DNA from: a virus | Virus record (IMG/VR): IMGVR_UViG_3300044630_004815 | Span: 6,210-70,209 of that record | Length of the DNA: 64,000 nt | Reading direction: 5' to 3' (one strand) | Shown: piece after piece, positions 9,627 to 64,000 of the stretch | Numbering within the stretch: the first letter of the stretch is position 1 | How the letters are laid out: every line of letters starts with the position of its first letter | Program-made: the position numbers and the translations under genes | Notes under the pieces: model-generated | What the model was told of the DNA's origin: nothing | Database searches by the model: none | Seen by the model: only the letters and a program-made list of their open reading frames with translations

Positions 9627-9634
9627 TATTTATA
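9627..9634 (-). promoter_or_regulatory. T4-type late promoter
   Basis: Perfect TATAAATA upstream of g22. Confidence 0.7.
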
Positions 9635-9636
9635 AA

Positions 9637-10820: not shown

Positions 10821-10845
10821 TACTATAATTAGTCTTTTATTTAAT

Positions 10846-10853
10846 TATTTAGT
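10846..10853 (-). promoter_or_regulatory. T4-type late promoter
   Basis: ACTAAATA upstream of ORF 10290..10820. Confidence 0.55.
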
Positions 10854-12794: not shown

Positions 12795-12797
12795 TTA

Positions 12798-12965: not shown

Positions 12966-12989
12966 AAATAACCTCAAAAAATTATAAAC

Positions 12990-12997
12990 TATTTATA
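12990..12997 (-). promoter_or_regulatory. T4-type late promoter
   Basis: Perfect TATAAATA overlapping the g20 stop. Confidence 0.7.
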
Positions 12998-14660: not shown

Positions 14661-14682
14661 ATTATAATTGTAAACTTTCTAC

Positions 14683-14690
14683 TATTTAGA
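14683..14690 (-). promoter_or_regulatory. T4-type late promoter
   Basis: TCTAAATA upstream of g20. Confidence 0.6.
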
Positions 14691-15315: not shown

Positions 15316-15332
15316 TGTTCTTCTCCTTTAAA

Positions 15333-17942
15333 TTAAACTGTTCCAACAACGGTTTCAAATGAAACACCAGTTCTCGTAGCAACGAATGTCAGTCCGATGT
15401 AATTGATAGAACGAGCTGGTTTTACATAAATGTCAGCAATAAATTCATTTCTATCAATAACAGCAGGAGTATTATTTGTTTCATCACACACTAGTAAGAA
15501 GTCTGTGATTCCTCGTTTTGCCTGCACATCTCTTAGATATGGTTCAACGATATTAATGAAACTTGCTCTTGTCGATGAATCATTAAATTCAAATAATTGA
15601 GCATCAGCAGCACCTCTGATTGCTTGTTCAATTGTAATGAACAACCTTCTGACGTTGATTCTGTCAAATGCTGATGGATAAGATAATGCAGTTTTATCAC
15701 CGAATAGAATTGTTCCAGATCCAGGATAAGTGATGATTGGATTGACTCTATTTGAATAGAGTTCGTCTCTGTCTTCTTGGTTTGGATTATATGCTAGTTT
15801 GATGACATTCTTAAGAGTTCCTCTCACCTTTCCAGCAGGAGAATACCAAGGATACTGATTAATGTCAGTTCTTACACATAGACCAGCAACATCTGCTGAG
15901 CATGGGATGTATACATACTCTCTGTTGAATCTGTCATAGATGTATTGATATCCAGAATCAAATGCTGCATAAGATGATGAAGATAGTGAAGTGAAGAATG
16001 AAAGAATGTTAGGAAGTTTATTTGCCTCTATTGGAACGTTAACAGTTGCTCCTCTGTATGGTGAAATAAATGCTAAACAATCTTTCCTAGATTCTGCTGT
16101 GGAAATTAGATAATTTGCTCTTGATTGCTCAAAATCAATACCACCAGAAGCACTTCCCTGAAGTAAGAAGTTTAATTCAACTTCATTCTCGTTTGCCAGT
16201 TTGTCAATTGCACTAGTAATGTCATTCAACTGTACTTCAAATCCACCAACATTAGTTGCTTGACCAGCAGCAGTTGAATAATCTTTTCCACCAGTGATTG
16301 TAAATGACTTATTTCCAACTGAGTTGAAATGTGTATCATCCGAAGTTTGTCCCCAAACACCTAGTGAGGTTGAAATTGGAGTAAATCCTGACGAGAATTT
16401 GGAAGAAACTTCAGAAACTCCCCAGTGTGCATCAGTTGCAAGTACAGCACCAGCAAATATATAACGTGAATTTGCCTCTAGGTAAGTCTTATAATATACG
16501 TTTTGTGATGGGGAAGTTTGGGCATCCGATGCCTTAGATATATTTCTGAATACTTCTAGAATTTGCTGAGGATTTCCTGAGAAATTTGATGCCCTAGTAT
16601 TGTCAATAATTGCAATATTCAGTGCATCATTACTACCACCCCTATCAGATACATACTGATTAGTTCTTGGTTTTGGTGCAATTGCCTTCCATAGAACAGT
16701 TTGCCTATCTCCATTAGCAGTATTTAATACATACTGCTGATTATACCAGTCATTAATTGCTAGTGGGTAGAGAAGTCCACTGTTTGAAATTGTACTTACT
16801 GTTAAAATTTCATTGGTTGCTGGGTTAATCAGGTAATCTCCAGCATTCACATTTCCTAAAGATGTGAGTTGAACTTGAGTTGTAGTTGAGTTGACTCCAA
16901 CTGAAACTGTAACGTCTGCAGGAAGAACTGATAGGATAGATATTGAAGAACCATCTGGATGATTCGTTGCAGTAGTTCCATAACTTGCTCTAGCAACAGT
17001 AACTGTAGATGTAACTAAATTTGAAATTACAGAAGATACTGTTACAATTTCCGAATTAATTTTTAATTTCTTTGCAGTTGTAATACCAGCATTATATGCA
17101 ACATAGAGAACAGTGTCAGAAGATTGGAACGCATCTGAACCTTGCATGTCCAGAGTTGTTATTCCATCAACATTTAAAGTAGTTAGAGTTTGTCCAGTTC
17201 CAATTGATGCTGCTGAGTATGTGCTTAATCCTGCTCTTACAACTTCTACTGCAGTAACTCCAACCCCAAGGGATCCATTGATGTAAATGGATTCCATGGT
17301 ATTAAAAGAATATACACCTCTTTCGGTGTAATCTTGATTAGTTTCAGTTCCACCAGAACTTACTTTACTTACAACTTTAACATAAAATTCAGAGTTTCCA
17401 ATACCAGAAACAATTCCTTTCAAATGTCCACCAGATTGAATTGATTGGGTAACTCCAACACCAACTGAAATTCCAGATGTATTAATTCCAGAAAAAGTTT
17501 GGTCTGCGAAGTTGTCAATTACACACACTTTAATTCCATCTGCCCAATATCCTGGGTTCTTTGCTGCCCAGTAATATCCAGATGAAATTGTTTCCTGATA
17601 ATTTTCATAATTTTTAATTTTAATGTCAGTTGAAGCAGCACCAACTGCAGCATTGGAGTTCTTCAGATTGTCTGAATCTGCTCTTACTACTTTTAAACTT
17701 CCACCGTAGGAAAGGAAGTTTGATGCAGAATACCAATACTCATAGTGAAAATTGTTCTTTGATGGTGAACCAAAAATGTTCACTAAATCATTTTCAGTTC
17801 TTATTGTAGTTACTTCTTCTACTGGACCTCTCTCAAAAGGTGCTGCAATACCTGCAGCTAAAGGAGAAGTAGCATTAACTGAACCTCTAGTTAAGTCTAC
17901 TTCTCTTATTGTAATCCCTGGAGATGATAAGCTTAAAGCCAT
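15333..17942 (-). CDS. g18: Tail sheath protein gp18 with a large central insertion
   Basis: SPG..IREVDLT, FLSYGG.L.VVR, PWYSPAG..RG and FDRINVRRLF motifs. Confidence 0.97.
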   Translation of the reverse strand: MALSLSSPGITIREVDLTRGSVNATSPLAAGIAAPFERGPVEEVTTIRTENDLVNIFGSPSKNNFHYEYWYSASNFLSYGGSLKVVRADSDNLKNSNAAVGAASTDIKIKNYENYQETISSGYYWAAKNPGYWADGIKVCVIDNFADQTFSGINTSGISVGVGVTQSIQSGGHLKGIVSGIGNSEFYVKVVSKVSSGGTETNQDYTERGVYSFNTMESIYINGSLGVGVTAVEVVRAGLSTYSAASIGTGQTLTTLNVDGITTLDMQGSDAFQSSDTVLYVAYNAGITTAKKLKINSEIVTVSSVISNLVTSTVTVARASYGTTATNHPDGSSISILSVLPADVTVSVGVNSTTTQVQLTSLGNVNAGDYLINPATNEILTVSTISNSGLLYPLAINDWYNQQYVLNTANGDRQTVLWKAIAPKPRTNQYVSDRGGSNDALNIAIIDNTRASNFSGNPQQILEVFRNISKASDAQTSPSQNVYYKTYLEANSRYIFAGAVLATDAHWGVSEVSSKFSSGFTPISTSLGVWGQTSDDTHFNSVGNKSFTITGGKDYSTAAGQATNVGGFEVQLNDITSAIDKLANENEVELNFLLQGSASGGIDFEQSRANYLISTAESRKDCLAFISPYRGATVNVPIEANKLPNILSFFTSLSSSSYAAFDSGYQYIYDRFNREYVYIPCSADVAGLCVRTDINQYPWYSPAGKVRGTLKNVIKLAYNPNQEDRDELYSNRVNPIITYPGSGTILFGDKTALSYPSAFDRINVRRLFITIEQAIRGAADAQLFEFNDSSTRASFINIVEPYLRDVQAKRGITDFLLVCDETNNTPAVIDRNEFIADIYVKPARSINYIGLTFVATRTGVSFETVVGTV

Positions 17943-19658: not shown

Positions 19659-20735
19659 TCAACAATTCCAAGCTCTAAGTGATTTATTGATCCTTGAATT
19701 TGGATCATTTGCAGTTTTCTTTGAGGTTAACTTACTTTTCACGCCACTCATTCTGGCACAGAATGATGCTCTTCTTGGGTTTCCTACTTTCTTTGAAGGT
19801 GCTTTCAAATCTGATCCAGGATTCTCCCTTTCATAAGATTTTCTTCCTTTTTCATTAAGACCACCAGATTGATTCTTACCTTCCTTTCTTTGCCATGCAG
19901 CAACTTCAGTCATAAATTGATTGAAAGTTTTTTGTTCTGGAACACAATTAGGAACTACTCTTTTCCCTTTCTTTTTCATTCCAACTTGCTTATACCCAGA
20001 CCAACATGCTTCAGAAACATCTTCATCACTAGACATATATTCTGCTGCAGTATCAATAAAGTCTGCTGCTCTAGTAATCTTGGATTGCACCCAAGCAGGA
20101 AGTTGTTGATCTCCCTTTTTAACTAATTTTCTGAGCATATTGATTGATCTTTCAATTTGATCAAACTCAACTCTTGCCATATATCCTTCATCATCTTTCT
20201 TCTTTCCAGAAGCAATTTCCTTATGATCCTCATGAATTTTTGATTCATTAGCAGGATGAAGTTTTGCAATACTATATTTGTCCCACATTTGTGGTCCCCA
20301 AGAACAATCCATTCTTTTTTCATTCTTTCTACAAAGAAGGCAATACTTTGTATCTTCCTTGTACTGCTGTTCTATATCAACTTCTTCTTTATATCCTTTT
20401 GCATCAGGAACTCCTTTTGAGGGAACGCAATTCGGAACCTTTCTTCCACCCTTCTTCTTCATTCCAACTTGAGTATACCCTTTCCAACAGGGATCCTTGT
20501 CTTCTTTCATGGTAGGTTTCCTTTCTACTTTTTTTAGTTTTGTGTAATAGTCTGGAAGTTCATCTACGTGCTGAAGTGCTGTTATCTTTGCACCACTTTT
20601 ACTTGTGGTATGCTCACCCTCAACCTTAGTTCCCATTTTTACCTGATTAATAATATTATCCAGAGGAACTTTATGCTTCTTGGCAATTTCTTCTGGGGAT
20701 CTATATGGTTTTACGGGACCTTTAGGATCTTTCAT
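19659..20735 (-). CDS. Modular basic protein, probable capsid-internal polyprotein (DUF5661-like and DUF6321-like modules)
   Basis: G.KVE.EHT...ALQH.DE.PDYYTKL module; two CW.GY.QVGMKKKG...VPNCVP repeats; C-terminal AWQRKEGK..SGGLN...RRASFCARM...SLRAWNC. Confidence 0.7.
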   Translation of the reverse strand: MKDPKGPVKPYRSPEEIAKKHKVPLDNIINQVKMGTKVEGEHTTSKSGAKITALQHVDELPDYYTKLKKVERKPTMKEDKDPCWKGYTQVGMKKKGGRKVPNCVPSKGVPDAKGYKEEVDIEQQYKEDTKYCLLCRKNEKRMDCSWGPQMWDKYSIAKLHPANESKIHEDHKEIASGKKKDDEGYMARVEFDQIERSINMLRKLVKKGDQQLPAWVQSKITRAADFIDTAAEYMSSDEDVSEACWSGYKQVGMKKKGKRVVPNCVPEQKTFNQFMTEVAAWQRKEGKNQSGGLNEKGRKSYERENPGSDLKAPSKKVGNPRRASFCARMSGVKSKLTSKKTANDPNSRINKSLRAWNC

Positions 20736-49054: not shown

Positions 49055-49282
49055 TTATTCTCCGCAATGCAATGATTGAATGTATACAATATCATCATAC
49101 AATGCATTACAATAATGATATTCTACCCATACTGATTCATCATTCATCCATTCATCTTTACTCATTGCATCATTATACTCTCTGAGTCTAAGCATTGATA
49201 GTCCTCGAATCACTCTATCAATATCACTGGGATGAAGAGTAATACGAATACCATTCTCAAACCTTACATAATCATCAGTCAT
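49055..49282 (-). CDS. Hypothetical protein
   Basis: 75-aa ORF, ATGACTGA start. Confidence 0.65.
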   Translation of the reverse strand: MTDDYVRFENGIRITLHPSDIDRVIRGLSMLRLREYNDAMSKDEWMNDESVWVEYHYCNALYDDIVYIQSLHCGE

Positions 49283-49840
49283 TTTGTTTGAAGAATTGCT
49301 TGTACAATGAGTAGAAGTTCATTACCATCTTGTGCTTTAGATAGTAATTTGATTTGTTCTTTTCTTTTCATATCAGTTAGACATTACCTTATAGAATAGA
49401 GACTGATAATTATCTACATCTAGATCATCTTCATAATCATTACCATCATAGAAAGAAAGAATGGTCTGTAGAACATTAAGTTCTTCAGGTGTGAATCGGA
49501 AAATCAATTCAGTCATCATTTGTTGATCAGAGTTTGAACTTCATCGAAAGACTTACACTGTCCTGCTTTAATTGCATTGGTGATGTTGTAAGTCACAAAT
49601 CCACATCGTTCAGTATTTGGATCACAGATTGCATATCCAGGTTGTTGAGTCTGAATATCGAAAACAGTTTTAATCAGCATTGTTAAATCAGAAATTGTGA
49701 AGATTCAGGGGCATACAAGAGATAAACTTGTAACCAGCAAGATTACCAAAGTTTTGAGTAGTTGCCTTATACTCAGATGTTGCAAGAATCGTTTTGGTGT
49801 GATTCGTATTGCAATGCTGATAGATGAACTTTTGAATCAT
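49279..49840 (-). other. Run of four micro-ORFs (49279-49371, 49373-49516, 49516-49680, 49688-49840)
   Basis: Manual translation gives abutting 30-54 aa ORFs. Confidence 0.6.
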
Positions 49841-50418: not shown

Positions 50419-50667
50419 CTAGAGTTGAGACAGCACCCACATCATCGCAGACACTTCCTGTTTATTATTCCATCCACTTACATCTTCAGTCATATTACCA
50501 TTGGGTCGAAAGATTGCAACCTCATAAGTATTGTCATTGATGTTACCATATAATCCACAAGCAGGAGGACCAGCAACTACGGAAATCTCCCAATCATTGC
50601 TGAACTTATATCTTGCTTGCACAGCATTAGGAATATTGTGCGGAACAAATGTAAGTTGATCAAACAT
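50419..50667 (-). CDS. Conserved phage hypothetical protein
   Basis: F.N.W.ISVV...GLYG...YEVAI pattern. Confidence 0.7.
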   Translation of the reverse strand: MFDQLTFVPHNIPNAVQARYKFSNDWEISVVAGPPACGLYGNINDNTYEVAIFRPNGNMTEDVSGWNNKQEVSAMMWVLSQL

Positions 50668-50672
50668 TGCCT

Positions 50673-50888
50673 TCATGCACAAACAGAATAGAGTTGATTA
50701 AACTTATATCCACCATCATCATCTTGTGCCTCATACACAATGACAGTTTCACCAGACAATTCTACACTCCAATCAAGTGCATTTTCTTTTGCATCATCTA
50801 CATCAGAATACCATTCCGCATCAATCAGATCAAAAGAAACAGGACAAGAAACAAACATTAAATCAGACTCGTGAATAAGGATTAGCAA
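50673..50888 (-). CDS. Acidic hypothetical protein
   Basis: ORF track; start may be MFVSCP. Confidence 0.65.
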   Translation of the reverse strand: MLILIHESDLMFVSCPVSFDLIDAEWYSDVDDAKENALDWSVELSGETVIVYEAQDDDGGYKFNQLYSVCA

Positions 50889-53920: not shown

Positions 53921-53936
53921 TAGTATAGTAAATAAG

Positions 53937-54008
53937 AGCCCCCGATCTGATTCGAACAGACGACCAATGGTTTACAAAACCATTGCTCTACCACTGAGCT
54001 ACAAGGGC
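53937..54008 (-). tRNA. tRNA-Thr(UGU)
   Basis: Cloverleaf: GCCCTTG/CGGGGGC acceptor, ATGGT-TTTGTAA-ACCAT anticodon arm, GTTCGAATC T loop; no encoded CCA. Confidence 0.95.
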
Positions 54009-56395: not shown

Positions 56396-57166
56396 CTAGA
56401 TGTCAAAGAATTTATCTGGATTGAATCCAGTATTTTGACCAGGATACCCACCAGGATTACAAATTACATTACACTGTTCAATCATATAATCAAAGTGATT
56501 GTGAGTGTGACCATGAACCCAGTATTTAATTTGTGGATGATTGATAATTATCTCATCAAGATTACTACAATAAGCACCGTTAGCATGTTTCTTGTATTCT
56601 TGAGGAACCGATTGATAACTCGGAGAATGATGACTGATAACAAATACATTGTCATTCAGTGTTTGTAATTGATTCAGTAGATACTTCTTACTTTCCTTAT
56701 GAAATGCAAGAGTATCATCTGCTCTCAATTTACGATACTTACCACCAATACGAATGACTTTGTAATCATTCATATTGCACTCTGCTTCCATCATCTCTAG
56801 AGCATTTTCATTACGAAAATCAGTCCAAAGTGTGAAACCAATAAAGTTCCAGTTGTTGATAGTTATTGTGTCATTATCAAGAAGATGAAAATTATGAGGG
56901 AGATTCTCTTTTATTTTCTTCTTTGCCCCTTCATAATTGTATCCATAGAACTCGTGATTTCCCATCACATAAAGAACTTTATCATAATTCTTATTGCAAT
57001 CATTTAAGAATCTATCATAGACTGCATGAATATATCCATCAGTCTTAAAATGCTTGGCACAAAGAATGTCTCCAGCAAGAACTAGAACATCACCTTCACC
57101 AACATCAAAGATTTGACAGGCAGTAAAATGTTCAAGATGTAAATCACTAAGAACTTTAAGTTTCAT
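56396..57166 (-). CDS. Calcineurin-like metallophosphoesterase
   Basis: SDLH, LAGD, GNHE, TLWTD, HH.PS and HGHTH motifs. Confidence 0.92.
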   Translation of the reverse strand: MKLKVLSDLHLEHFTACQIFDVGEGDVLVLAGDILCAKHFKTDGYIHAVYDRFLNDCNKNYDKVLYVMGNHEFYGYNYEGAKKKIKENLPHNFHLLDNDTITINNWNFIGFTLWTDFRNENALEMMEAECNMNDYKVIRIGGKYRKLRADDTLAFHKESKKYLLNQLQTLNDNVFVISHHSPSYQSVPQEYKKHANGAYCSNLDEIIINHPQIKYWVHGHTHNHFDYMIEQCNVICNPGGYPGQNTGFNPDKFFDI

Positions 57167-57180
57167 TGTTATAAAAATAA

Positions 57181-57254
57181 CGGGTTAGGAGGGACTCGAA
57201 CCCCCGACCAATTCATTAGAAGTGAATTGCTCTATCCATCTGAGCTACTAACCC
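57181..57254 (-). tRNA. tRNA-Arg(UCU)
   Basis: GGGTTAG/CTAACCC acceptor, ATTCA-CTTCTAA-TGAAT anticodon arm, GTTCGAGTC T loop. Confidence 0.95.
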
Positions 57255-57256
57255 AT

Positions 57257-57333
57257 AGACCCTCTGGTTTGTGCATTGTTAAGAGGCATAGAGGGTGTGG
57301 GACTTACTTAAAGTTTGGACCTTTAATGCCCCT
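57257..57333 (-). ncRNA. Two-hairpin structured RNA, abiF-like candidate
   Basis: GGGGC/GUCCC with UUAAAG/CUUUAA hairpin, then ACCCUCU/AGAGGGU with UGC/GCA hairpin; family call from memory only. Confidence 0.45.
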
Positions 57334-57338
57334 AGAAA

Positions 57339-57590
57339 TTAACCGTTAAGGACTTGAGGTTCGGAATCCTCTGCGTCAAGTTTATTTAGAACATACTGAA
57401 TGGGTTTCAGTTCTTCCTTGAGGTCATTCTCAAGTTCCTTGAAAGTCTCAACCAGTGCCTCAAAGAGTTCAGAACCAGTCAGGTCTTCATAATCACAATC
57501 ATCAAAGAAGTTTTCACGGAAATACTCCGTGAGTTGGTTTTTCAGATTTTCAACAATTTGACGAGAAGCAGACTTGCAACGACGTGCCAT
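57339..57590 (-). CDS. Acidic helical hypothetical protein
   Basis: 83-aa ORF. Confidence 0.7.
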   Translation of the reverse strand: MARRCKSASRQIVENLKNQLTEYFRENFFDDCDYEDLTGSELFEALVETFKELENDLKEELKPIQYVLNKLDAEDSEPQVLNG

Positions 57591-57623
57591 AATAAAGAAA
57601 AAAGTTAGTTAGTTAAACTGTAA

Positions 57624-57848
57624 TCAGACGTAAGTTACATTGCCTTCAGCATCAGTGAGGGAAACATAACCGTCATCCTCAGAATCCACAGGTTCAGAAT
57701 AGTTCTCAAGCACAGTGGAATCATAATTGTCCAGTGCTTCAATGAGTTCAGCACCAGTCTCTGCTTTAGTCAGATTGACAATCAGTTGAGAACCCGCAGG
57801 GTTGGTATCAACGATTTCAGCAGCAAGAGCAATCAGTTTAGCAGACAT
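57624..57848 (-). CDS. Acidic hypothetical protein
   Basis: 74-aa ORF. Confidence 0.7.
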   Translation of the reverse strand: MSAKLIALAAEIVDTNPAGSQLIVNLTKAETGAELIEALDNYDSTVLENYSEPVDSEDDGYVSLTDAEGNVTYV

Positions 57849-57892
57849 TTAGGAAAAAGTCAAGGTTAATATTTGGGCATTGTTATACCCAA

Positions 57893-57964
57893 TTGGAATG
57901 GTGAGAGTTGAACTCACGACTTCTGCGTTATCAGCACAGCACTCTACCACTGAGTTACATTCCA
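57893..57964 (-). tRNA. tRNA-Ile(GAU)
   Basis: TGGAATG/CATTCCA acceptor, CTGTG-CTGATAA-CGCAG anticodon arm, GTTCAACTC T loop. Confidence 0.9.
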
Positions 57965-57973
57965 GAAAAGAAA

Positions 57974-58111
57974 TCAAATACTCAAAGGGTATTCAATCTC
58001 ATCTTCGTCAGGAAGACCAAATTCAAGACTAATATAGTCTTCATAATCAATACCGAGATACTTTTGAGCAAAATCCTCGTAATCATCGTGAAGAACACAA
58101 GTGTCAATCAT
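57974..58111 (-). CDS. Very acidic 45-aa protein (start MIDTCV)
   Basis: AGGAGG RBS downstream of cassette 7. Confidence 0.7.
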   Translation of the reverse strand: MIDTCVLHDDYEDFAQKYLGIDYEDYISLEFGLPDEDEIEYPLSI

Positions 58112-58139
58112 CTTGAAACCTCCTTGACTCGATGAATAC

Positions 58140-58198
58140 ATCATAGCACGTTCAGGACCGTCTGGCAAGTGATATGTGCCACTAGAAGAAGTGGCACA
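58140..58198 (-). promoter_or_regulatory. Palindrome-promoter cassette 7
   Basis: TGTGCCACT-N6-AGTGGCACA, then TTGCCA-N17-TATGAT. Confidence 0.85.
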
Positions 58199-58203
58199 AG
58201 GTA

Positions 58204-58383
58204 TTAAACATCATAAAACCTATTTTGCCTCAGTTCATCTTGATAAGTTTTATTTTCCCACTCTTCATTCCAAGGAACAGATAACATAAAATTATAATGT
58301 TCCATCCAACGACTAGAAAGTTCTAGGATTGTGTTATAATTTTCAAACTTATCGTAGAACCCAGTTGAATCAAGGAGTAACAT
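58204..58383 (-). CDS. Hypothetical protein, 59 aa (not in the ORF track)
   Basis: MLLLDSTGFYDKFENY..., exactly fills the space between cassettes 8 and 7. Confidence 0.65.
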   Translation of the reverse strand: MLLLDSTGFYDKFENYNTILELSSRWMEHYNFMLSVPWNEEWENKTYQDELRQNRFYDV

Positions 58384-58405
58384 GGTTTTGATTGATTACG
58401 AAGTA

Positions 58406-58464
58406 ATTATAGCAGTGTTTGGAGTGCTGTGCTCTTTTATTGTGCCACATCTACAGGTGGCACA
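58406..58464 (-). promoter_or_regulatory. Palindrome-promoter cassette 8
   Basis: TGTGCCACA-N6-GGTGGCACA, 29 bp from TATAAT. Confidence 0.8.
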
Positions 58465-58697
58465 GTGCCATCAAACTGCTCCAGCAGTTCTGGATTGTAT
58501 TCTGCAACCTCTTTAATCAGTTCGGCATCATTGTAAGAATCAAGATTGCCTACCAAAGTATCATAAGCAAACGACACTAGAGTATCCATATCCATTCCCT
58601 CTACGATAAGAGAGGCATAGTCTTCAATCAGTTGATCTCGGTCGAAGTTCATTTTGTTGAATTTAAGGATTTCAGTGTAAAGGTCAGTCATAATCAA
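58437..58697 (-). CDS. Acidic hypothetical protein
   Basis: DRDQLIEDYA..IVEGMD.DTL pattern. Confidence 0.7.
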   Translation of the reverse strand: MIMTDLYTEILKFNKMNFDRDQLIEDYASLIVEGMDMDTLVSFAYDTLVGNLDSYNDAELIKEVAEYNPELLEQFDGTVPPVDVAQ

Positions 58698-58918
58698 TAA
58701 GATGAATCAATTTCGGCAAGTTTTTTCTGTTGCCTCAGATCCTTAACAATCAATTGCAATTCACAAATGTCCTCATTTAGAATTGTGAGGTCATCATACA
58801 TCATTTCTGCTTGATATACACTTCTACATTTTTTATATTGCTTTTGAAGTTTATCAAACTTTTTCTTTGCTTCCTTGAGTTCTTTTTCGTACTCTTGAAT
58901 AGATTTTGAATAATTCAT
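58694..58918 (-). CDS. Coiled-coil hypothetical protein (start MNYSK)
   Basis: ORF track; ATGA overlap. Confidence 0.65.
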   Translation of the reverse strand: MNYSKSIQEYEKELKEAKKKFDKLQKQYKKCRSVYQAEMMYDDLTILNEDICELQLIVKDLRQQKKLAEIDSSY

Positions 58919-59046
58919 TTGCGATAAGGACTGAACCAATAAGAACGGAAAACTGTAATAACAATAATAGCAGTACTAATGATACCAACCAAACCAATAA
59001 TGGTAGTTGCATCACCATTGAAATTGAATGTGTCTATGGACATCAT
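58915..59046 (-). CDS. Small single-pass membrane protein, 43 aa
   Basis: MMSIDTFNFNGDATTIIGLVGIISTAIIVITVFRSYWFSPYRK, following cassette 9. Confidence 0.65.
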   Translation of the reverse strand: MMSIDTFNFNGDATTIIGLVGIISTAIIVITVFRSYWFSPYRK

Positions 59047-59065
59047 TTGAGTGATTTACTTCGTA

Positions 59066-59124
59066 ATCATAGCACCTTTACGGTGCGAAATCAAGTGATA
59101 GTGGACAGTGCCAAAACTGTCCAC
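59066..59124 (-). promoter_or_regulatory. Palindrome-promoter cassette 9 (variant arms)
   Basis: Perfect GTGGACAGT-N6-ACTGTCCAC, then TTGATT-N17-TATGAT. Confidence 0.8.
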
Positions 59125-59263
59125 CGTTATACTTATGTAGTCAATTATGGACTAGGATCAAAATAAACGATTTCTTCCAATGCAGGAAGAATCTTTATGA
59201 ACCAGGAAATGTTAGATGGGCAACAAGAAGTCAACAACAAAGAAATAGGAGAAATTCAAAAAA

Positions 59264-59533
59264 TTAAATGTTCCAAGTCCCCCGTTGAATCATAATCTTT
59301 TTAATCTCAGTAAACACAAACTTTTTCAGTTTAGCATCTTCAGTTGTCTCATATGCAAGATAGAGTCTTTTCAGATAATCTTCTTGTGTGCAAACTTTAA
59401 CTACTTTTGCATCGGTCATTCCAATATCACGCAAAGGAGAACCTGCTTTAACTTTTGCCCTACCAAAATTGCCAGATACAGAACCTTGAGTGCGAAGTTT
59501 AGGTTTGATTTTAGAAAGATTGGAAGCAGTCAT
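59264..59533 (-). CDS. Basic hypothetical protein (start MTASNLSK)
   Basis: KIKPKLRTQG.VSGNFG..KVKAGS; start placed after cassette 10. Confidence 0.7.
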   Translation of the reverse strand: MTASNLSKIKPKLRTQGSVSGNFGRAKVKAGSPLRDIGMTDAKVVKVCTQEDYLKRLYLAYETTEDAKLKKFVFTEIKKIMIQRGTWNI

Positions 59534-59555
59534 TGCCCTTTTTGAGTATGCACTC

Positions 59556-59615
59556 ATTATAGGGTAGAACCTACCCCATTGGGGGGTGGTCTGTGCCAGT
59601 TCCACAAGTGTCACA
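59556..59615 (-). promoter_or_regulatory. Palindrome-promoter cassette 10
   Basis: TGTGCCAGT-N6-AGTGTCACA, 30 bp from TATAAT. Confidence 0.75.
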
Positions 59616-59735
59616 GGCATCTTTCATAAGTTTTTTCAATTTCTGTTTGCCATATTCAGTGAGTTCGTATTTCTTATTGCGAAGTTGCTCTACCTCTTCT
59701 TGAGTGAGATCCACCCACGGCATATCATCGTTCAT
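59571..59735 (-). CDS. 54-aa protein, paralog of 61104..61292
   Basis: LTQEEVEQLRNKKYELTEYGKQKLKKLM. Confidence 0.65.
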   Translation of the reverse strand: MNDDMPWVDLTQEEVEQLRNKKYELTEYGKQKLKKLMKDACDTCGTGTDHPPMG

Positions 59736-59965
59736 TTGTTCTTCTCACAATACAGGAAATACTTGTACTCGGCAACTTGGTGCGGTGCATATCTTACTAC
59801 ATCGCATTCTTTGTACTTATCAACCACTTCAAATGATGAAGAATTCAGTGGTTTATCACCACCTGTGGAAAGATTAATAATCACAAGAAAGATTATACCA
59901 AAGACAACAAAGACACCAGCAGCACTGAGAAACTCTTTGAGAGCATACTTATCTTCTTCAGTCAT
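59732..59965 (-). CDS. Membrane-anchored small protein
   Basis: TM helix then FEVVDKYK.CDVVRY. Confidence 0.7.
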   Translation of the reverse strand: MTEEDKYALKEFLSAAGVFVVFGIIFLVIINLSTGGDKPLNSSSFEVVDKYKECDVVRYAPHQVAEYKYFLYCEKNK

Positions 59966-60144
59966 TGTTCCCAAGCATAAGATTTTAGAAATTCATTATC
60001 TCTTTGAAGTGTTTCAATTTTATCATACAAATCATCAATAATTTCAATCAAGGCATCATAATCAATCGTTTCAGTTGTTCTACCATCCTCCATATCCTCA
60101 TAGTAGGAATACTGGAGTTGTTGTTTTATGTTTCGTTCAGTCAT
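59962..60144 (-). CDS. Hypothetical protein, paralog of 61461..61643
   Basis: MTERN...DNEFLKSYAWE. Confidence 0.75.
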   Translation of the reverse strand: MTERNIKQQLQYSYYEDMEDGRTTETIDYDALIEIIDDLYDKIETLQRDNEFLKSYAWEQ

Positions 60145-60890
60145 CGTAGCATCCCCTTAATTTTTTCAAGACAATGATTAAATCCATCAACAAGTAATTC
60201 AGTATTTACATTCTGACTTCCTGCTGCTGATTGTTCTTTCGGCAACCAGTCCTCCACCAAATCTACAACATCATTACAAGCATCAAATTCATAACCAAGT
60301 TCATCTACCAATCTATTAAAAAGTTTTTGTGCTTGGTATTTTTTAATCAACCTATCCACAACCTCATCCATAGGTTTTGGATTATCCTTTTCATCCCATT
60401 CTACTTCATCATAATACTCTGGTTCATCAGGACACTGTGGTTCATCAAACTTTCCCTTCTTCACATCATTAAACCACACACCTTCAAGCAAACGATGAGT
60501 TTCACCATCACTAATATTAACCATCAGCATACCATCAACAGTATGCTTTCTCTTATACCAAGTATGACTCTTATCATTAAATTCATAACGATAATAATTC
60601 TCACCATTATAAGAGACAATCTCAAATTTACCACCAAGTTCAAAGTTCATTCTTGGTGGTTGAGATTTATGTGTCTCAATCTCTTTGAGGAGGTCAAGTT
60701 TCTTTTGTAATACTTTTATTTCTGCTTCGGTCTTTTCAATATCAGATTTGAAAGTCATTTGTTTAAAATAAGGAGTAGCATCCATCACACCATCTTTCAT
60801 TGCTTGTCTAAAGGCATTACGGAGACCAGTATCGACTTGCTCTCTTTTCTCTGCTTCTTCAAACATCTCATCAGGATAAGGTTCAGTCAT
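60141..60890 (-). CDS. Mosaic hypothetical protein
   Basis: 249 aa; N-terminal module shared with 63109..63390. Confidence 0.75.
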   Translation of the reverse strand: MTEPYPDEMFEEAEKREQVDTGLRNAFRQAMKDGVMDATPYFKQMTFKSDIEKTEAEIKVLQKKLDLLKEIETHKSQPPRMNFELGGKFEIVSYNGENYYRYEFNDKSHTWYKRKHTVDGMLMVNISDGETHRLLEGVWFNDVKKGKFDEPQCPDEPEYYDEVEWDEKDNPKPMDEVVDRLIKKYQAQKLFNRLVDELGYEFDACNDVVDLVEDWLPKEQSAAGSQNVNTELLVDGFNHCLEKIKGMLR

Positions 60891-61111
60891 AAGTCCTCCA
60901 ATTCATTCGCAAGTTCAAGAATATCCTCACAATACAGCAATCCACCAACTCTACATTGCTCTACTACCTCACGAAGAACAGCAGCATACTCACAGTTCAC
61001 ACGAGCACTCATAGGGTCTTTCTTGCCCTCACGGATGAGTTTTCCCAGAGGAACACCACCATCCACTACTCTATGTGCGGCATCTATTACTTTTTGTGCT
61101 CTTTCAGTCAT
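60887..61111 (-). CDS. Hypothetical protein (start MTERAQKV)
   Basis: ATGACTGA junction at 61104-61111. Confidence 0.7.
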   Translation of the reverse strand: MTERAQKVIDAAHRVVDGGVPLGKLIREGKKDPMSARVNCEYAAVLREVVEQCRVGGLLYCEDILELANELEDL

Positions 61112-61292
61112 TTTGTGCCTCTTGTTTTTCCATAAGTTCTTTGAGTTTTTTCCGTGCATAATCCGTGAGTTCATATTTTTGATTTCTCAATTCATCAATT
61201 TCATTTTGAGATAGAAAGAAACCATCTGGAAGATTTCCAAAGTCCTCTTTGTCCCATTCTTGGATTTGTTCGTCTGTGTATTCTTCACTCAT
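61104..61292 (-). CDS. Hypothetical protein
   Basis: 62 aa; paralog of 59571..59735. Confidence 0.7.
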   Translation of the reverse strand: MSEEYTDEQIQEWDKEDFGNLPDGFFLSQNEIDELRNQKYELTDYARKKLKELMEKQEAQND

Positions 61293-61464
61293 CTCTTATC
61301 TCCTTTAACCATTTAGCAAATTCAATCCATTTTGTATCGTTGAATGCTTCTTGGAGAACTTCAGCATTAGGTTCGTGGTTTATTCTATAAATTAACATTT
61401 TCATCTCATTACGAATAAGAACCCGATGCCTATTAACCATTTCGCATATTTGAGCATCAGTCAT
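61285..61464 (-). CDS. Hypothetical protein (start MTDAQI)
   Basis: ATGA overlap. Confidence 0.65.
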   Translation of the reverse strand: MTDAQICEMVNRHRVLIRNEMKMLIYRINHEPNAEVLQEAFNDTKWIEFAKWLKEIRDE

Positions 61465-61643
61465 ACTTCCCACGCATAAGATTTTAGGATTTCGTTGTCT
61501 TTTTCCAGTTGCTCCACTCTTTCTACCAAATCTTGAAGAATAAGAATTAAAGCAGGATAGTGAATGTTTTGAGTATCATTTCCCCCTTCCATATCGGTAT
61601 AGGTGAAATATTGAAGTTCTTTCTCAAGGTTGCGTTCAGTCAT
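61461..61643 (-). CDS. Hypothetical protein (start MTERNL)
   Basis: Paralog of 59962..60144. Confidence 0.75.
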   Translation of the reverse strand: MTERNLEKELQYFTYTDMEGGNDTQNIHYPALILILQDLVERVEQLEKDNEILKSYAWEV

Positions 61644-61821
61644 TTTCAGTTCCTCCATAATAATGTTGTGCGTTGAGTGTTCTCCACATTACAATCTGTT
61701 CAAAACATTCCCCAAGATTGCGACAAACAAAACTATCTTCATCTATTCCATCAGGACCATCCCAGATTGTAGCAGTATATCCTTTGGTTGGATGTGGTGT
61801 ATAAGTGATTTCAATCTTCAT
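61636..61821 (-). CDS. Hypothetical protein
   Basis: 61 aa (DGPDGID...LGECFEQI). Confidence 0.7.
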   Translation of the reverse strand: MKIEITYTPHPTKGYTATIWDGPDGIDEDSFVCRNLGECFEQIVMWRTLNAQHYYGGTEND

Positions 61822-62056
61822 TATTCGTCAGTCCTACTTCAAGTCCTTCCATTCTTCCCATATTATAACCCATAACAAACGCAGAGTGAACCCACTTATA
61901 CATCAAATCCTGACGGGTCTTCACATCTTCTACCTCCGCATCATCATAGAACCATTCACTACGAAATGAAAAACCACCACAAAGGTCGTTGAACCATTCC
62001 TGAAATGCTTCTTCAATTGTATCATCAAATTCCCAATCTTTTGTAGGATGCGTCAT
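61811..62056 (-). CDS. Hypothetical protein (start MTHPTK)
   Basis: ATGA overlap; F.EWF....GFS.RSEWFY.D pattern. Confidence 0.7.
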   Translation of the reverse strand: MTHPTKDWEFDDTIEEAFQEWFNDLCGGFSFRSEWFYDDAEVEDVKTRQDLMYKWVHSAFVMGYNMGRMEGLEVGLTNNED

Positions 62057-62241
62057 AAGTCTAATGGTTGCTGGGGGTCTTTTTTCCAAGTTTCCTTATA
62101 AGTAATCCACCGTTCCACACCAATTTCTTGTTGAGCAACCCAGTGTATTCCATTCTCATCAATCGCATCAAGATAATGAACACCAGTCTTGGGGCAGATG
62201 ACTCTGGATACTTGTGTGAATTTTAGTTTGTTAGTCATCAT
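62053..62241 (-). CDS. Hypothetical protein
   Basis: 62 aa (KTGVHYLDAIDENG.HW). Confidence 0.7.
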   Translation of the reverse strand: MMTNKLKFTQVSRVICPKTGVHYLDAIDENGIHWVAQQEIGVERWITYKETWKKDPQQPLDL

Positions 62242-62431
62242 CAGAACTCCAAGTATTCATTTTGGTGCTTACATTACTACTTTCCCAACCTTCATCGTAT
62301 CCTACTTTGAAACCTTCTGTGTAGATTAATGCAGAAAATTTCAAGAGTTGTTTTTTGGTTGATGTAATATTATCTGGAAATTCATCAAACCCACAGGTTT
62401 TAGCAAGTTTTAGGATTTGTTCGTCAGTCAT
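62231..62431 (-). CDS. Hypothetical protein
   Basis: MTDEQILKLA..CGF. Confidence 0.7.
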   Translation of the reverse strand: MTDEQILKLAKTCGFDEFPDNITSTKKQLLKFSALIYTEGFKVGYDEGWESSNVSTKMNTWSSDDD

Positions 62432-62787
62432 TCTTCCAAACTCTTAATACATTTTTGAATCAGGTCGTTCCACCTCTTTGGAGTAAGTTTCTCACTCGCA
62501 TAAGAACTCCTAAAAGGATACTTATACCAAGTCAAACGGAAGTTTTCACTTGGGATTTGAAAGTTAGGTTTATCCATTTCATCTTCTTCATCACCCCAAT
62601 AATAAGGACGGATGATAAAGAAGTCGTTGGAGAAATGTGGAGTGTATCCATAATCTTTTTCTCCTGTCTTTTCTGTGATCGCATCAATCAGGATTTGGAA
62701 TGGACCACCCATCCACTTCTCACGAGGAACACTATATTCCTCTGTGGCATTTCCAAATAACATTTGCCCAAGTTCAAGTTCAGTCAT
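62428..62787 (-). CDS. Hypothetical protein (start MTELELGQ)
   Basis: GGAG RBS; F.IRPYYWGD...PNF...WYKYP.R pattern. Confidence 0.75.
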   Translation of the reverse strand: MTELELGQMLFGNATEEYSVPREKWMGGPFQILIDAITEKTGEKDYGYTPHFSNDFFIIRPYYWGDEEDEMDKPNFQIPSENFRLTWYKYPFRSSYASEKLTPKRWNDLIQKCIKSLEE

Positions 62788-62788
62788 T

Positions 62789-63031
62789 TCAATCTCCAAG
62801 AACACCAGACCTTACACTTTCCACACCATCAACATATCCCCTATCATACTCATCACCTGCTCCAATATCATAACCAATACCATATGCTTTATCAGCAACT
62901 ACAAGAGCAAACTTTACAGCAACCTCACGAAAGGCATTATTCATAGCACCAGTCATAACACCAGCACCAAGAGTATTCATTCCAAACTGGGTTCCATTAC
63001 CCCAGAGTTCAATAAGTTCTTGTTCAGTCAT
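62789..63031 (-). CDS. Hypothetical protein
   Basis: GAGGA RBS directly after cassette 11. Confidence 0.7.
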   Translation of the reverse strand: MTEQELIELWGNGTQFGMNTLGAGVMTGAMNNAFREVAVKFALVVADKAYGIGYDIGAGDEYDRGYVDGVESVRSGVLGD

Positions 63032-63054
63032 CAGTCCTCTGTGTGTATGAGAGT

Positions 63055-63113
63055 ATTATACCACTCACAGAACCCCACAGAGCATCCCTTGTGCCAGTTC
63101 TTCAAGTGTCATT
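63055..63113 (-). promoter_or_regulatory. Palindrome-promoter cassette 11
   Basis: TGTGCCAGT-N6-AGTGTCATT, 29 bp from TATAAT. Confidence 0.75.
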
Positions 63114-63390
63114 TCTTCTCCACCCACATACAATCAAAACAAATTCGCATCATAAACCTCACAAAACGATTAGGAACTCTTCCTTCTGCTGGTGTATAAG
63201 CAATACCATAATTAGCATTTGGACGATTGCCGAACATATAGCAAGTCCAGTTAGATTGTTTTGGTTGACTGATTTTGAAAGCATCAGCAGGAATTTTGAA
63301 TACACCCTCTAGTTTTGCTTGTTTCATAGCATCACGAAGACCAGCATCTACTTCTTCTGGTGTTTGTGGTTTTGGTTGAAATTCAGTCAT
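63109..63390 (-). CDS. Hypothetical protein
   Basis: 93 aa; ATGACTGA start. Confidence 0.7.
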   Translation of the reverse strand: MTEFQPKPQTPEEVDAGLRDAMKQAKLEGVFKIPADAFKISQPKQSNWTCYMFGNRPNANYGIAYTPAEGRVPNRFVRFMMRICFDCMWVEKK

Positions 63391-63517
63391 TTTTCAATTC
63401 TCTGTTAATAATGTCTTTGACTACATTATACTTGATTTTATCAATTTCTTCATTCACCCACTTCTTCACACCCTCATTCATACTTTTGAGTGTGGTTTCC
63501 CATTCTTCGTCAGTCAT
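63383..63517 (-). CDS. Hypothetical protein, 44 aa (not in the ORF track)
   Basis: MTDEEWETTLK...ELKND, bounded by two ATGACTGA junctions. Confidence 0.65.
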   Translation of the reverse strand: MTDEEWETTLKSMNEGVKKWVNEEIDKIKYNVVKDIINRELKND

Positions 63518-63681
63518 CGTTCAGCAACCACGATAAAGTCATTCATAGAAATACTCCTCTTACTTTTAGCAAGAATACCTTGATTTGGGAAATAAGGAAC
63601 TGCTACAAGATTATAGAATGGTCTCAACTGCTCATAGAGAGTATAAAGGTGTCCGTCTTTCTTGTATCGGTAGAGTTTCAT
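63514..63681 (-). CDS. Hypothetical protein, 55 aa (not in the ORF track)
   Basis: MKLYRYKKDGHLYTLY...; ATGA overlaps at both ends. Confidence 0.65.
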   Translation of the reverse strand: MKLYRYKKDGHLYTLYEQLRPFYNLVAVPYFPNQGILAKSKRSISMNDFIVVAER

Positions 63682-63884
63682 AGTGCCTCCACATCATAAG
63701 AGATTTCATTTAGTTCTTGAGCAATATGAAGGTGCCAAGGTTCATTTTCAAGCACTCCATCTCTATGAATGATAGAAGAAATCACACGAATAGAAGATGC
63801 TAATGCTTCTTTCATATCATCGGTGGGTTCTACAATCAATTCTGCTTTGAATGTTTCCCAGATTTGATATGCGGTGTTAGTCAT
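63678..63884 (-). CDS. Hypothetical protein
   Basis: 68-aa ORF. Confidence 0.7.
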   Translation of the reverse strand: MTNTAYQIWETFKAELIVEPTDDMKEALASSIRVISSIIHRDGVLENEPWHLHIAQELNEISYDVEAL

Positions 63885-64000
63885 CGGTCAAAGTATCCAG
63901 AAGGTTTGTAATCACTAATGTATTGAGTTTTTAGTTGAATATCAAATGGGTCAATATCAGGGTGTTTTTCTTTGATGAAGGTTTTACACTCATCACGGGT
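63881..64000 (-). CDS. Hypothetical protein, C-terminal part (start outside window)
   Basis: Open frame TRDECKTF...GYFDR* ending in an ATGA overlap. Confidence 0.55.
   Translation of the reverse strand, partial: TRDECKTFIKEKHPDIDPFDIQLKTQYISDYKPSGYFDR

What the first reader, a model, noticed from the sequence alone, without database searches (positions are those of the whole stretch)
59958..63884. Micro-gene array joined by a universal ATGACTGA start/stop junction
Seen: in about 3.9 kb, minus-strand ATGACTGA (plus-strand TCAGTCAT) occurs 11 times, at 59958, 60137, 60883, 61104, 61457, 61636, 62424, 62780, 63024, 63383 and 63510. ATGACTAA occurs at 62231 and 63877. Roughly 0.1 copies of a given 8-mer would be expected by chance. 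Every copy is a gene start (MTE, MTD, MTN). The 8-mer has stops in both other frames (A-TGA and AT-GAC-TGA), and upstream genes use both (4-nt overlaps, or 8-nt overlaps ending ..ND*). More copies occur at 49275, 49509 and 58684. Inference: a standard connector that terminates an incoming ORF in either alternative frame and translationally couples the next gene. It could serve as the crossover point for an integron-like, plug-and-play cassette array with no dedicated integrase in view.
Basis: partly seen in the sequence, partly recalled or inferred. Interest (0 to 1): 0.8.

Follow-up and report, generated by a model that had tools for sequence, protein, structure and literature searches.

The report
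Shared start/stop junction in cyanophage genes
A run of tiny unknown genes in a freshwater T4-like cyanophage all begin with the same eight letters, which stop the previous gene in either reading frame, start the next one, and mark the points where related phages gain, lose or swap single genes.

Summary
ATGACTGA occurs 11 times on the minus strand in 59958-63517, against about 0.3 expected, and each copy is a gene start. The window is part of a T4-like freshwater cyanomyovirus. The array corresponds to the S-PM2 'ORFanage' of small orphan genes.

The motif is specific to this gene pool:
- 561 copies on the coding strand against 14 on the other strand, in 80 related loci.
- 14 copies in the S-PM2 ORFanage.
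- No cluster in Syn9 or T4.

The constraint acts on nucleotides, and it fits selection for a second out-of-frame stop. ACT is linked to a following GA or AA, and GAC is preferred over GAT. Both stops are used: 4-nt and 8-nt overlaps both occur, and 21 of 29 gene families use both in different genomes.

Gene gain, loss and swap breakpoints between related phages fall on start codons. Indels are flanked by direct repeats of the motif more often than a local null predicts (21 of 62 against 10.5).

Three results go against a dedicated system:
- Starts with ATGA alone break just as sharply.
- Motif genes are not measurably more mobile.
- There is no integrase or attC-like site.

Verdict: a translational-coupling connector that probably also serves as microhomology for gene shuffling. 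It is integron-like only by analogy. No experiment has tested this.

The parts
59571..63884 (-). Array of 18 co-oriented small genes (44-249 aa), all starting with ATGA. 11 start ATGACTGA, 2 ATGACTAA and 1 ATGAGTGA. It corresponds to the S-PM2 'ORFanage' gene pool.
   Evidence: ORFs. The gene caller reproduces the hand annotation. 6 of the 18 proteins have S-PM2 ORFanage homologues, in scrambled order. There are almost no family matches.
63877..63884 (-). ATGACTAA start (MTN). The upstream gene ends at the first TGA (4-nt overlap).
63510..63517 (-). ATGACTGA start (MTD), 4-nt overlap.
63383..63390 (-). ATGACTGA start (MTE). The upstream gene ends at the second TGA (8-nt overlap, ..KND*).
63032..63108 (-). 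The only real intergenic spacer in the array (77 nt). It holds a TGGTATAAT element that looks like an extended -10 box.
   Evidence: Sequence context. The consensus scan did not list it because it lacks a -35 match.
63024..63031 (-). ATGACTGA start (MTE) that follows the spacer. Neither stop is used by an upstream gene.
62780..62787 (-). ATGACTGA start (MTE). The upstream gene stops 1 nt before the ATG.
62424..62431 (-). ATGACTGA start (MTD), 4-nt overlap.
62231..62238 (-). ATGACTAA start (MTN). The upstream gene ends at the TAA (8-nt overlap, ..DDD*).
61636..61643 (-). ATGACTGA start (MTE), 8-nt overlap (..TEND*).
61457..61464 (-). ATGACTGA start (MTD), 4-nt overlap.
61285..61292 (-). ATGAGTGA start (MSE), a variant that keeps both stops. 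8-nt overlap.
61104..61111 (-). ATGACTGA start (MTE), 8-nt overlap (..AQND*).
60883..60890 (-). ATGACTGA start (MTE) of the 249-aa gene, 4-nt overlap.
60137..60144 (-). ATGACTGA start (MTE), 4-nt overlap. In related phages the same 17-nt junction follows the same upstream gene family but precedes 4 different downstream families.
59958..59965 (-). ATGACTGA start (MTE), 4-nt overlap.
58684..58691 (-). Outlying ATGACTGA gene start (MTD).
49509..49516 (-). Outlying ATGACTGA at a gene start (MMTE or MTE).
49275..49282 (-). Outlying ATGACTGA gene start (MTD).
19906..19913 (-). ATGACTGA copy that is not a gene start: an internal in-frame Met of the 358-aa ORF 19659-20735.
50486..50493 (-). ATGACTGA copy inside ORF 50419-50682, in frame. 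Not called as a start.
61104..61643 (-). Block A (g12-g13-g14), paralogous to block B at its first and third genes. The middle gene is unrelated. Similarity between the first genes runs up to the shared ATGACTGA and ends there.
59571..60144 (-). Block B (g17-g18-g19), the paralogue of block A.

Best explanation
ATGACTGA (ATG ACT GA-A/C, reading Met-Thr-Glu/Asp) is the shared 5' end of a pool of small, tightly packed, co-oriented orphan genes. They lie in the hyperplastic 'ORFanage'-type region of T4-like cyanomyoviruses, mostly from fresh water.

The motif works first as a start/stop overlap junction. TGA at nt 2-4 and TGA (or TAA) at nt 6-8 end the upstream ORF, whichever of the two alternative frames it is in, directly on top of the next start codon. 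A ribosome that terminates there can then reinitiate. This matters because only about half of these starts have a Shine-Dalgarno-like element.

The same 8-9 nt, sometimes up to 17 nt, recur at many junctions, and both gene ends lie inside them. A crossover between two copies therefore leaves both flanking genes intact. The motif is thus the place where single genes are deleted, inserted or swapped, probably by the phage's general recombination or by replication slippage at microhomology, with no dedicated recombinase.

Shown here: the anatomy, the use of both stops, the nucleotide-level bias, the restriction to this gene pool, and breakpoints at start codons with motif direct repeats. Inferred: that translation is actually coupled, and that the repeat raises the recombination rate rather than merely marking the recombinants that survive.
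For: Enrichment and strand bias:
- 561 copies on the coding strand against 14 on the other strand, in 1.24 Mb of 80 related loci.
- It is the commonest start 8-mer: 237 of 2224 first-ATG ORFs, and the majority start in 68 of 723 protein families.

Signs of stop-codon selection:
- The second codon is ACT in 485 cases, against ACA 45, ACC 59 and ACG 14. Internal Thr codons are only 47% ACT.
- After ACT the next two bases are GA in 49% and AA in 21% of cases. After the other Thr codons GA is 19% and AA 16%, close to background.
- Counting one vote per family gives OR 5.6, p=1.6e-5.
- Other second codons ending in T show the same link (OR 2.0, p=3e-10).
- Variants found within motif families mostly keep the stops while changing the amino acid: ATGACTAA 43, ATGAGTGA 12, ATGAATGA 10, against ATGACCGA 8.
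- At position 9, GAC outnumbers GAT (25% against 6%), although GAT makes up 78% of internal Asp codons.

Use of both stops:
- 4-nt overlaps number 613 and 8-nt overlaps 141.
- ATGACTGA accounts for 20% of 4-nt-overlap starts and 41% of 8-nt-overlap starts, but only 2-5% of starts after gaps of 11 nt or more.
- 21 of 29 motif families use both stops in different genomes.

Restriction to this gene pool:
- S-PM2 has 26 forward copies, 14 of them in the 9.5-kb ORFanage.
- Complete relatives carry one cluster of 5-8 kb each.
- Syn9 and T4 have no cluster and no excess of a stop at nt 6-8.

Breakpoints:
- When the upstream neighbour differs, identity falls from about 90-100% to about 30% exactly at the ATG.
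- 67 of 111 indels between loci at least 85% identical run from start codon to start codon.
- After deduplication, 21 of 62 have direct repeats of 8 nt or more, against 10.5 expected from a local null (p=9e-4; rank test p=1e-4).
- In replacements, homology resumes at offset 0 from the ATG in 79 of 217 cases.
- One 17-mer junction lies between 5 upstream and 6 downstream families.
Against: - No experiment supports any of this, and coupling is only inferred.
- ATGA-only starts have equally sharp breakpoints. With no intergenic space, selection for intact genes could by itself place surviving breakpoints at start codons.
- Upstream-neighbour diversity is no higher for motif genes (0.70 against 0.675, p=0.36).
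- 24 of the 62 start-to-start indels have the motif at neither end.
- The indel and replacement events are not phylogenetically independent. The association of start types at replaced genes (OR 3.2) is confounded by local motif density.
- The single documented S-PM2 ORFanage deletion (5,799-15,339; passages of PMC4503421) ends inside ORFs, not at the motif.
- Where the second stop is unused, its T at nt 6 is hardly better conserved than other third codon positions (86% against about 79%, 26 families).
- 33 of 785 starts that follow a gap of 11 nt or more still carry the motif.
- The preference for C at nt 5 is not explained by the stops.
Confidence: 0.62

Rival explanations
1. Plain N-terminal or second-codon preference. 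ATG-A-C and an acidic third residue would be favoured for efficient initiation, low mRNA structure or removal of the initiator Met. The stops would be incidental.
For: - A at nt 4 and C at nt 5 are general bacterial preferences (Tang 2010, as cited in passages of PMC5850271).
- 72% of all called starts here begin with ATGA (table).
- 33 of 785 starts after gaps of 11 nt or more still carry ATGACTGA.
- These proteins are rich in Glu and Asp (17.5% of internal codons).
Against: - ACT is linked to a following GA or AA, but ACA, ACC and ACG are not.
- GAC is preferred over GAT, against normal usage.
- Variants within families change the amino acid but keep the stop.
- The motif does not cluster in Syn9, T4 or the rest of S-PM2. 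S-PM2's other genes are translated in the same host as its ORFanage.
- It is rare in large genes.
Confidence: 0.1
2. Error-proofing traps. The two out-of-frame stops would catch ribosomes that start or slip into the wrong frame at a reinitiation site. This extends the proposal that ATGA traps +1 shifts.
For: - In 4-nt overlaps, where the second stop is not needed, a frame+2 stop sits at nt 6-8 in 35% of 613 junctions, against 6-11% at later positions.
- The ATGA trap model is published (PMC5850271, abstract and passages).
Against: - The T at nt 6 is barely more conserved than other third codon positions when the stop is unused.
- The trait is specific to one gene pool and absent from equally packed small-gene clusters of Syn9 and T4.
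- A general error trap should not be confined to one gene pool.
Confidence: 0.1
3. An operator for an RNA-binding regulator. A RegA-like translational repressor, or an endoribonuclease, would recognise AUGACUGA on the mRNAs of one co-regulated class of early genes.
For: - The motif covers the start codon of one gene class.
- RegA homologues are present in S-PM2 and in a complete relative of this phage.
- T4 RegA binds at the start codons of early mRNAs (recalled, not from any call).
Against: - The variation keeps stop codons rather than a fixed sequence. G and A interchange freely at nt 7, and nt 5 varies among C, T, G and A.
- There is almost no conservation outside the 8-9 nt.
- Syn9 has RegA but no motif cluster.
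- Conservation is weak when the stop is unused.
Confidence: 0.06
4. A true site-specific cassette system, integron-like, in which a dedicated recombinase acts on the 8-mer.
For: - One orientation, genes without their own promoters, and a repeated junction.
- Indels flanked by the motif.
- Synteny shuffled gene by gene relative to S-PM2.
Against: - No tyrosine recombinase in the contig or in a complete 246-kb relative, and no GIY-YIG endonuclease in the contig.
- No structured inverted repeats at the junctions.
- Breakpoints are equally sharp at ATGA-only starts.
- 24 of 62 start-to-start indels lack the motif at both ends.
- The laboratory deletion does not end at the motif.
Confidence: 0.03
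5. Shared ancestry. The genes would be paralogues that inherited one N-terminus.
For: - Some true paralogues exist in the window: g12/g17, g14/g19, and the N-terminal parts of g5 and g16.
Against: - 68 BLASTP-distinct families share the start.
- Information content drops to near zero after nt 9.
Confidence: 0.04

Closest known systems
Start/stop overlaps (ATGA, TGATG) with translational coupling by termination-reinitiation in bacteria and archaea (PMC6728339 and PMC10666635; abstracts seen in the listing)
   Same: Co-directional genes overlap by 4 nt (ATGA). This is the dominant junction type here too (613). An 8-nt overlap is the next most common type.
   Different: Here one fixed 8-mer supplies stops for both alternative frames. 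It is shared by dozens of unrelated genes of one mobile gene pool, and it shows synonymous-site bias for the second stop. Coupling has not been measured here.
[quoted passage not shown]
   Same: A short repeated element next to small orphan genes in hyperplastic regions of T4-like phages. Indels and replacements between close relatives end at the repeats, and no dedicated recombinase is involved.
   Different: [quoted passage not shown] This array has essentially no intergenic DNA, and the repeat is the start/stop overlap itself. Puxty et al. judged PeSLs unlikely to explain shuffling in the S-PM2 ORFanage (passages).
S-PM2 'ORFanage' (Puxty et al. 2015, PMC4503421, passages; Clokie et al. 2010, PMC2984593, passages)
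   Same: The same gene pool: 6 of the 18 array proteins have ORFanage homologues. The same start motif is present, as 14 ATGACTGA and 3 ATGACTAA starts. The pool is linked to fresh water and its synteny is scrambled.
   Different: The passages I read do not mention the motif, and they call the shuffling mechanism unclear. The S-PM2 genome paper (Mann et al. 2005) is not held, so I could not check it.
Integron gene cassettes
   Same: An array of promoterless genes in one orientation, separated by a recurring junction, with gene-by-gene turnover.
   Different: There is no IntI, no attC or attI, and no structured sites. The junction is 8 nt of coding sequence.
A at the fourth position as a trap for +1 frameshifts (PMC5850271, abstract and passages)
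   Same: ATGA places a TGA in the +1 frame immediately after the start.
   Different: Here a second stop lies in the other frame at nt 6-8. It is confined to one phage gene pool, and real upstream genes use it.

Membership tests
ATGA-type start/stop overlap junction (translational coupling) | Adjacent co-directional genes whose stop and start codons overlap (4 nt ATGA, 1 nt, or 8 nt) | tested here: met
   In the window, 10 junctions overlap by 4 nt and 5 by 8 nt. In related loci the counts are 613 and 141.
ATGA-type start/stop overlap junction (translational coupling) | Translation of the downstream gene depends on translation of the upstream gene | not testable with these tools
   No RNA or ribosome data. 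All runs found were DNA. About half of the overlapped starts lack a Shine-Dalgarno-like element, which fits coupling but does not prove it.
Integron cassette array | IntI tyrosine recombinase encoded next to the array | tested here: not met
   PF00589 gave 0 matches in the 70-kb contig and 0 in a complete 246-kb relative that has a 12-copy array. The contig is only about 35% of a genome.
Integron cassette array | attC recombination sites (imperfect inverted repeats) at cassette ends | tested here: not met
   Of 7 inverted-repeat pairs in 59500-64000, none recurs at the junctions. All recurring direct repeats centre on the start motif.
Integron cassette array | Promoterless cassettes in one orientation behind a common promoter | tested here: inconclusive
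   All 18 genes share one orientation and are overlapped. Promoter-like hits are only slightly above shuffles (32 against 21.4, sd 4.5). One spacer holds a -10-like element.
PeSL-mediated modular shuffling (T4-type phages) | Intergenic composite of an early promoter and a stem-loop flanking the mobile ORFs | tested here: not met
   There is only one 77-nt spacer in the array. The 7 terminator-like sites in 57000-64000 are not at the junctions.
PeSL-mediated modular shuffling (T4-type phages) | Indels and replacements between close relatives that end at copies of the repeated element | tested here: met
   67 of 111 indels run from start to start. After deduplication, 16 of 62 have the motif at both ends and 22 at one end. 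Repeats of 8 nt or more occur in 21 of 62, against 10.5 expected.
PeSL-mediated modular shuffling (T4-type phages) | Circular excised intermediates | not testable with these tools
   Only assembled contigs were available.
S-PM2-type ORFanage gene pool of T4-like cyanomyoviruses | Homologues of ORFanage ORFs, inside a T4-like cyanophage genome | tested here: met
   6 of the 18 array proteins match S-PM2 p030, p032, p042, p046/p049 or p048. blastn hits only Synechococcus phages. T4-like head, tail, terminase and gp46-like genes lie in the window.

The most novel reading that the evidence does not exclude
The 8-mer, with its longer forms such as the 17-nt junction found between 5 upstream and 6 downstream gene families, would be a self-propagating universal adaptor. 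Both gene ends lie inside it, so any crossover between two copies gives two intact, translationally coupled genes. A pool of single-gene cassettes could then circulate among freshwater and some marine cyanomyoviruses without any recombinase. Captured genes would acquire the Met-Thr-Glu/Asp N-terminus as a by-product. On this reading the motif's fixed codons reflect descent of the connector, not selection on each protein.
Probability: 0.3. Interest if true: 0.8.

Novelty: new variant of a known kind. Interest (0 to 1): 0.6.

Why it matters
Hyperplastic regions full of small orphan genes are where T4-like phages keep their host-takeover and counter-defence repertoire. How those genes are shuffled one at a time is an open question. 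For the S-PM2 ORFanage, the published discussion calls the mechanism unclear and judges PeSLs unlikely.

A coding-sequence connector that guarantees termination and reinitiation in either frame, and also provides microhomology, would explain three things at once: the zero-spacer packing, the exact gene-boundary mosaicism, and the odd shared N-terminus. S-PM2 can be grown in culture, so this can be tested directly. The motif is also a practical marker for finding starts and cassette limits in the unknown genes of cyanophage metagenomes.

Tried and rejected
- Family searches of 10 array proteins gave almost nothing. PHROGs returned only two unknown-function families and a weak coiled-coil-like hit. 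Pfam returned one match below threshold.
- A full-text search for the 8-mer returned 2,526 papers, and all 15 listed were primer-type matches. Searches on cyanophage plus translational coupling plus ATGA, and on ORFanage plus S-PM2 plus overlapping plus stop codon, found no paper whose listed title or abstract concerns this motif. Mann et al. 2005 is not held. Supplementary files were not consulted.
- Test for a three-frame stop design: in-frame stops within 9 nt upstream are no commoner at motif starts than at other ATGA starts (23% in both).
- Shine-Dalgarno content does not differ between motif starts and other overlapped starts (49% against 51%).
- Neighbour-diversity test of extra mobility: not significant.
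- A first hand-picked comparison of repeat lengths (9 events chosen by eye) was replaced by the systematic version.
- Metagenome contigs from four lake-water runs are short and fragmented here. Of the 15 joints listed (8 more were not shown), 6 have an end within 1-2 nt of a start motif: 60144, 61111, 61635, 62233, 62432 and 63390. However, the matching sides are only 21-43 nt at 90% likeness, so this is a weak hint only.
- I looked for microhomology at the S-PM2d deletion ends and saw nothing clear.
- The script did nothing useful.

Full report
**What is there**

The window is bases 6210-70209 of a 70,209-base virus contig. All large genes lie on the minus strand. They include T4-type major head protein, portal, tail sheath, large terminase, a baseplate wedge protein, a gp46-like nuclease subunit and helicases. 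blastn of 59900-64000 against phage records hits 12 records, all of them Synechococcus phages. The best are S-SRM01 and S-PM2, each covering only 5-9% of the query. The stretch is held by lake-water and freshwater metagenomes (24 runs from 21 studies). The window therefore belongs to a T4-like freshwater cyanomyovirus.

**The observation**

- ATGACTGA occurs 17 times in the window, 16 of them on the minus strand. None of 100 shuffles reached that number (mean 5.3).
- Eleven copies lie in 59958-63517, at exactly the coordinates given.
- ATGACTAA occurs twice and is not enriched on its own.
- A simple gene caller reproduces my hand annotation. From 63884 down to 59571 there are 18 genes of 44-249 aa.
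- All 18 start with ATGA: 11 with ATGACTGA, 2 with ATGACTAA and 1 with ATGAGTGA.
- Ten junctions are 4-nt overlaps and five are 8-nt overlaps. One start follows a 77-nt spacer that holds a -10-like element, and one follows a 1-nt spacer.
- Two further minus-strand copies (19906, 50486) are internal Met codons.
- The proteins are orphans.

**Is it peculiar to this window? No, but it is peculiar to this gene pool**

- Relatives of the 249-aa protein brought in 80 IMG/VR loci. These hold 561 copies on the coding strand and 14 on the other strand, in 1.24 Mb.
- In 46 dereplicated sources, ATGACTGA is the commonest 8-mer at first-ATG ORF starts (237 of 2224) and ATGACTAA is second (103).
- Counted by protein family, so that relatives do not inflate the numbers, 68 of 723 families have ATGACTGA as their majority start and 26 have ATGACTAA. 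Only 2 of the 96 families of 200 aa or more have ATGACTGA.
- S-PM2 has 26 forward copies, 14 of them inside the 9.5-kb ORFanage.
- Four complete or nearly complete relatives each show one tight cluster.
- Syn9 (5+1 copies) and T4 (2+6) show no cluster. Their small-gene regions show no excess of a stop at nt 6-8.
- Six of the 18 window proteins have S-PM2 ORFanage homologues, in a different order.

Because the rest of the S-PM2 genome lacks the motif, a host-wide preference in translation cannot explain it.

**Amino acids or nucleotides?**

- Thr at codon 2 is ACT in 485 cases, against 118 for the other three codons together. Internal Thr is only 47% ACT.
- After ACT, the next two bases are GA in 49% and AA in 21% of cases. 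Each of these makes a stop in the +2 frame. After ACA, ACC or ACG the figures are 19% and 16%, which match the internal Glu+Asp and Lys+Asn content.
- The link holds per family (OR 5.6, p=1.6e-5). It also holds for other second codons that end in T (OR 2.0, p=3e-10).
- Within motif families, the common variants keep the stops while changing the residue: ATGACTAA 43, ATGAGTGA 12 and ATGAATGA 10.
- Position 9 is A in 66% and C in 25% of cases, so GAC beats GAT even though GAT makes up 78% of internal Asp codons. I cannot explain this last point. It may reflect descent from a few connector versions.
- There is almost no conservation outside nt 1-9.

**Are both stops used?**

- Across the loci, 4-nt overlaps (613) and 8-nt overlaps (141) are the two commonest junction types.
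- ATGACTGA makes up 20% of 4-nt-overlap starts and 41% of 8-nt-overlap starts. After gaps of 11 nt or more it makes up only 2-5%.
- In 21 of 29 motif families with at least four motif-bearing members, some genomes use the first stop and others use the second.
- In 4-nt overlaps the second stop is present in 35% of 613 junctions, against 6-11% at later positions. Yet its T is not much better conserved than other third codon positions (86% against about 79%).
- That combination fits frequent change of the upstream neighbour better than it fits a constant function such as an operator or a frameshift trap.

**Breakpoints**

- When the same gene has different upstream neighbours in two phages, identity drops from about 90-100% to about 30% exactly at the ATG. 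This is true for motif genes (525 pairs) and equally for other ATGA genes (538 pairs).
- Between loci at least 85% identical I found 111 distinct indels. Of these, 67 run from one start codon to another.
- After deduplication, 21 of 62 have exact direct repeats of 8 nt or more across the two starts, against 10.5 expected from local pairs of starts (p=9e-4; rank test p=1e-4). Sixteen have the motif at both ends, 22 at one end and 24 at neither.
- In 401 distinct replacements, homology resumes at the ATG itself in 79 of the 217 cases where the right boundary lies at a start.
- One upstream gene family, with an identical 17-nt junction, precedes four different downstream families. Another 17-mer sits between 5 upstream and 6 downstream families.
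- Inside the window, two paralogous three-gene blocks share their first and third genes but differ in the middle gene. Similarity between the first genes ends at the shared 8-mer.

**What speaks against a special recombination role**

- Motif genes do not have more diverse neighbours (p=0.36).
- ATGA-only junctions break just as sharply.
- With no intergenic DNA, selection alone would leave breakpoints at start codons.
- The events are not independent, and the start-type association at replaced genes is confounded by local motif density.
- The one documented laboratory deletion of the S-PM2 ORFanage (5,799-15,339; PMC4503421) ends inside ORFs.
- No integrase was found in the contig or in a complete relative. 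No GIY-YIG enzyme was found in the contig. There are no structured repeats at the junctions.

**Conclusion**

The motif is a start/stop connector with stops in both alternative frames. Both stops are used, and the motif is shared by a mobile pool of small cyanophage genes.

Its most likely mode of action is termination-reinitiation coupling. A probable second role is as microhomology at which general recombination or replication slippage adds, removes and swaps single genes while leaving both neighbours intact.

It resembles PeSL-mediated shuffling and integron arrays in outcome, but it belongs to neither family.

I found no description of the motif in print in the searches. The S-PM2 genome paper could not be read.

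Noticed in passing
window 63109-63390 and 60141-60890 (minus strand): The N-terminal 30-40 residues of the 93-aa and 249-aa proteins resemble each other (a D-x-G-L-R-x-A...G-V stretch). Metagenome contigs join the two regions at 60821 and 63350, probably because of this similarity.
   Followed up: partly
window 59962-60144 / 61461-61643, and 59571-59735 / 61104-61292: Two pairs of paralogous small genes sit in a duplicated three-gene block whose middle gene differs. The first pair matches PHROG 16080 (unknown function) and S-PM2 p048.
   Followed up: partly
window 53936-54008, 57180-57255, 57893-57964 (minus strand): Three phage tRNA genes, Thr(tgt), Arg(tct) and Ile(gat), lie just downstream of the array. 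I did not examine whether the Thr tRNA relates to the ACT second codon.
   Followed up: no
window 60881-60898 and 63022-63039: Two junctions share 17 of 18 nt: a Shine-Dalgarno-like GAGGA, a spacer, the 8-mer and two more bases. This is longer than the 8-mer alone.
   Followed up: partly
motif starts in the 46 dereplicated sources (related loci plus the window's own contig): After ATGACTGA the ninth base is A or C in 91% of cases, so GAC outnumbers GAT although GAT is the usual Asp codon. G is nearly absent at third codon positions near the start. This is unexplained.
   Followed up: partly
window 59732-59965 (minus strand): The 77-aa product has a hydrophobic stretch (VFVVFGIIFLVIINL) that suggests a membrane protein. 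Most of the other array proteins are acidic.
   Followed up: no
window 59000-64000 in runs X1-X4: Public lake-metagenome assemblies break into pieces of 150-1100 bases across the array, with many single-base variants. This indicates high microdiversity of the region in nature.
   Followed up: partly
window 56396-57166 (minus strand): A metallo-phosphoesterase gene (PHROG 1649) lies between the small-gene region and the next block. Its start is ATGAAACT, not the motif.
   Followed up: no
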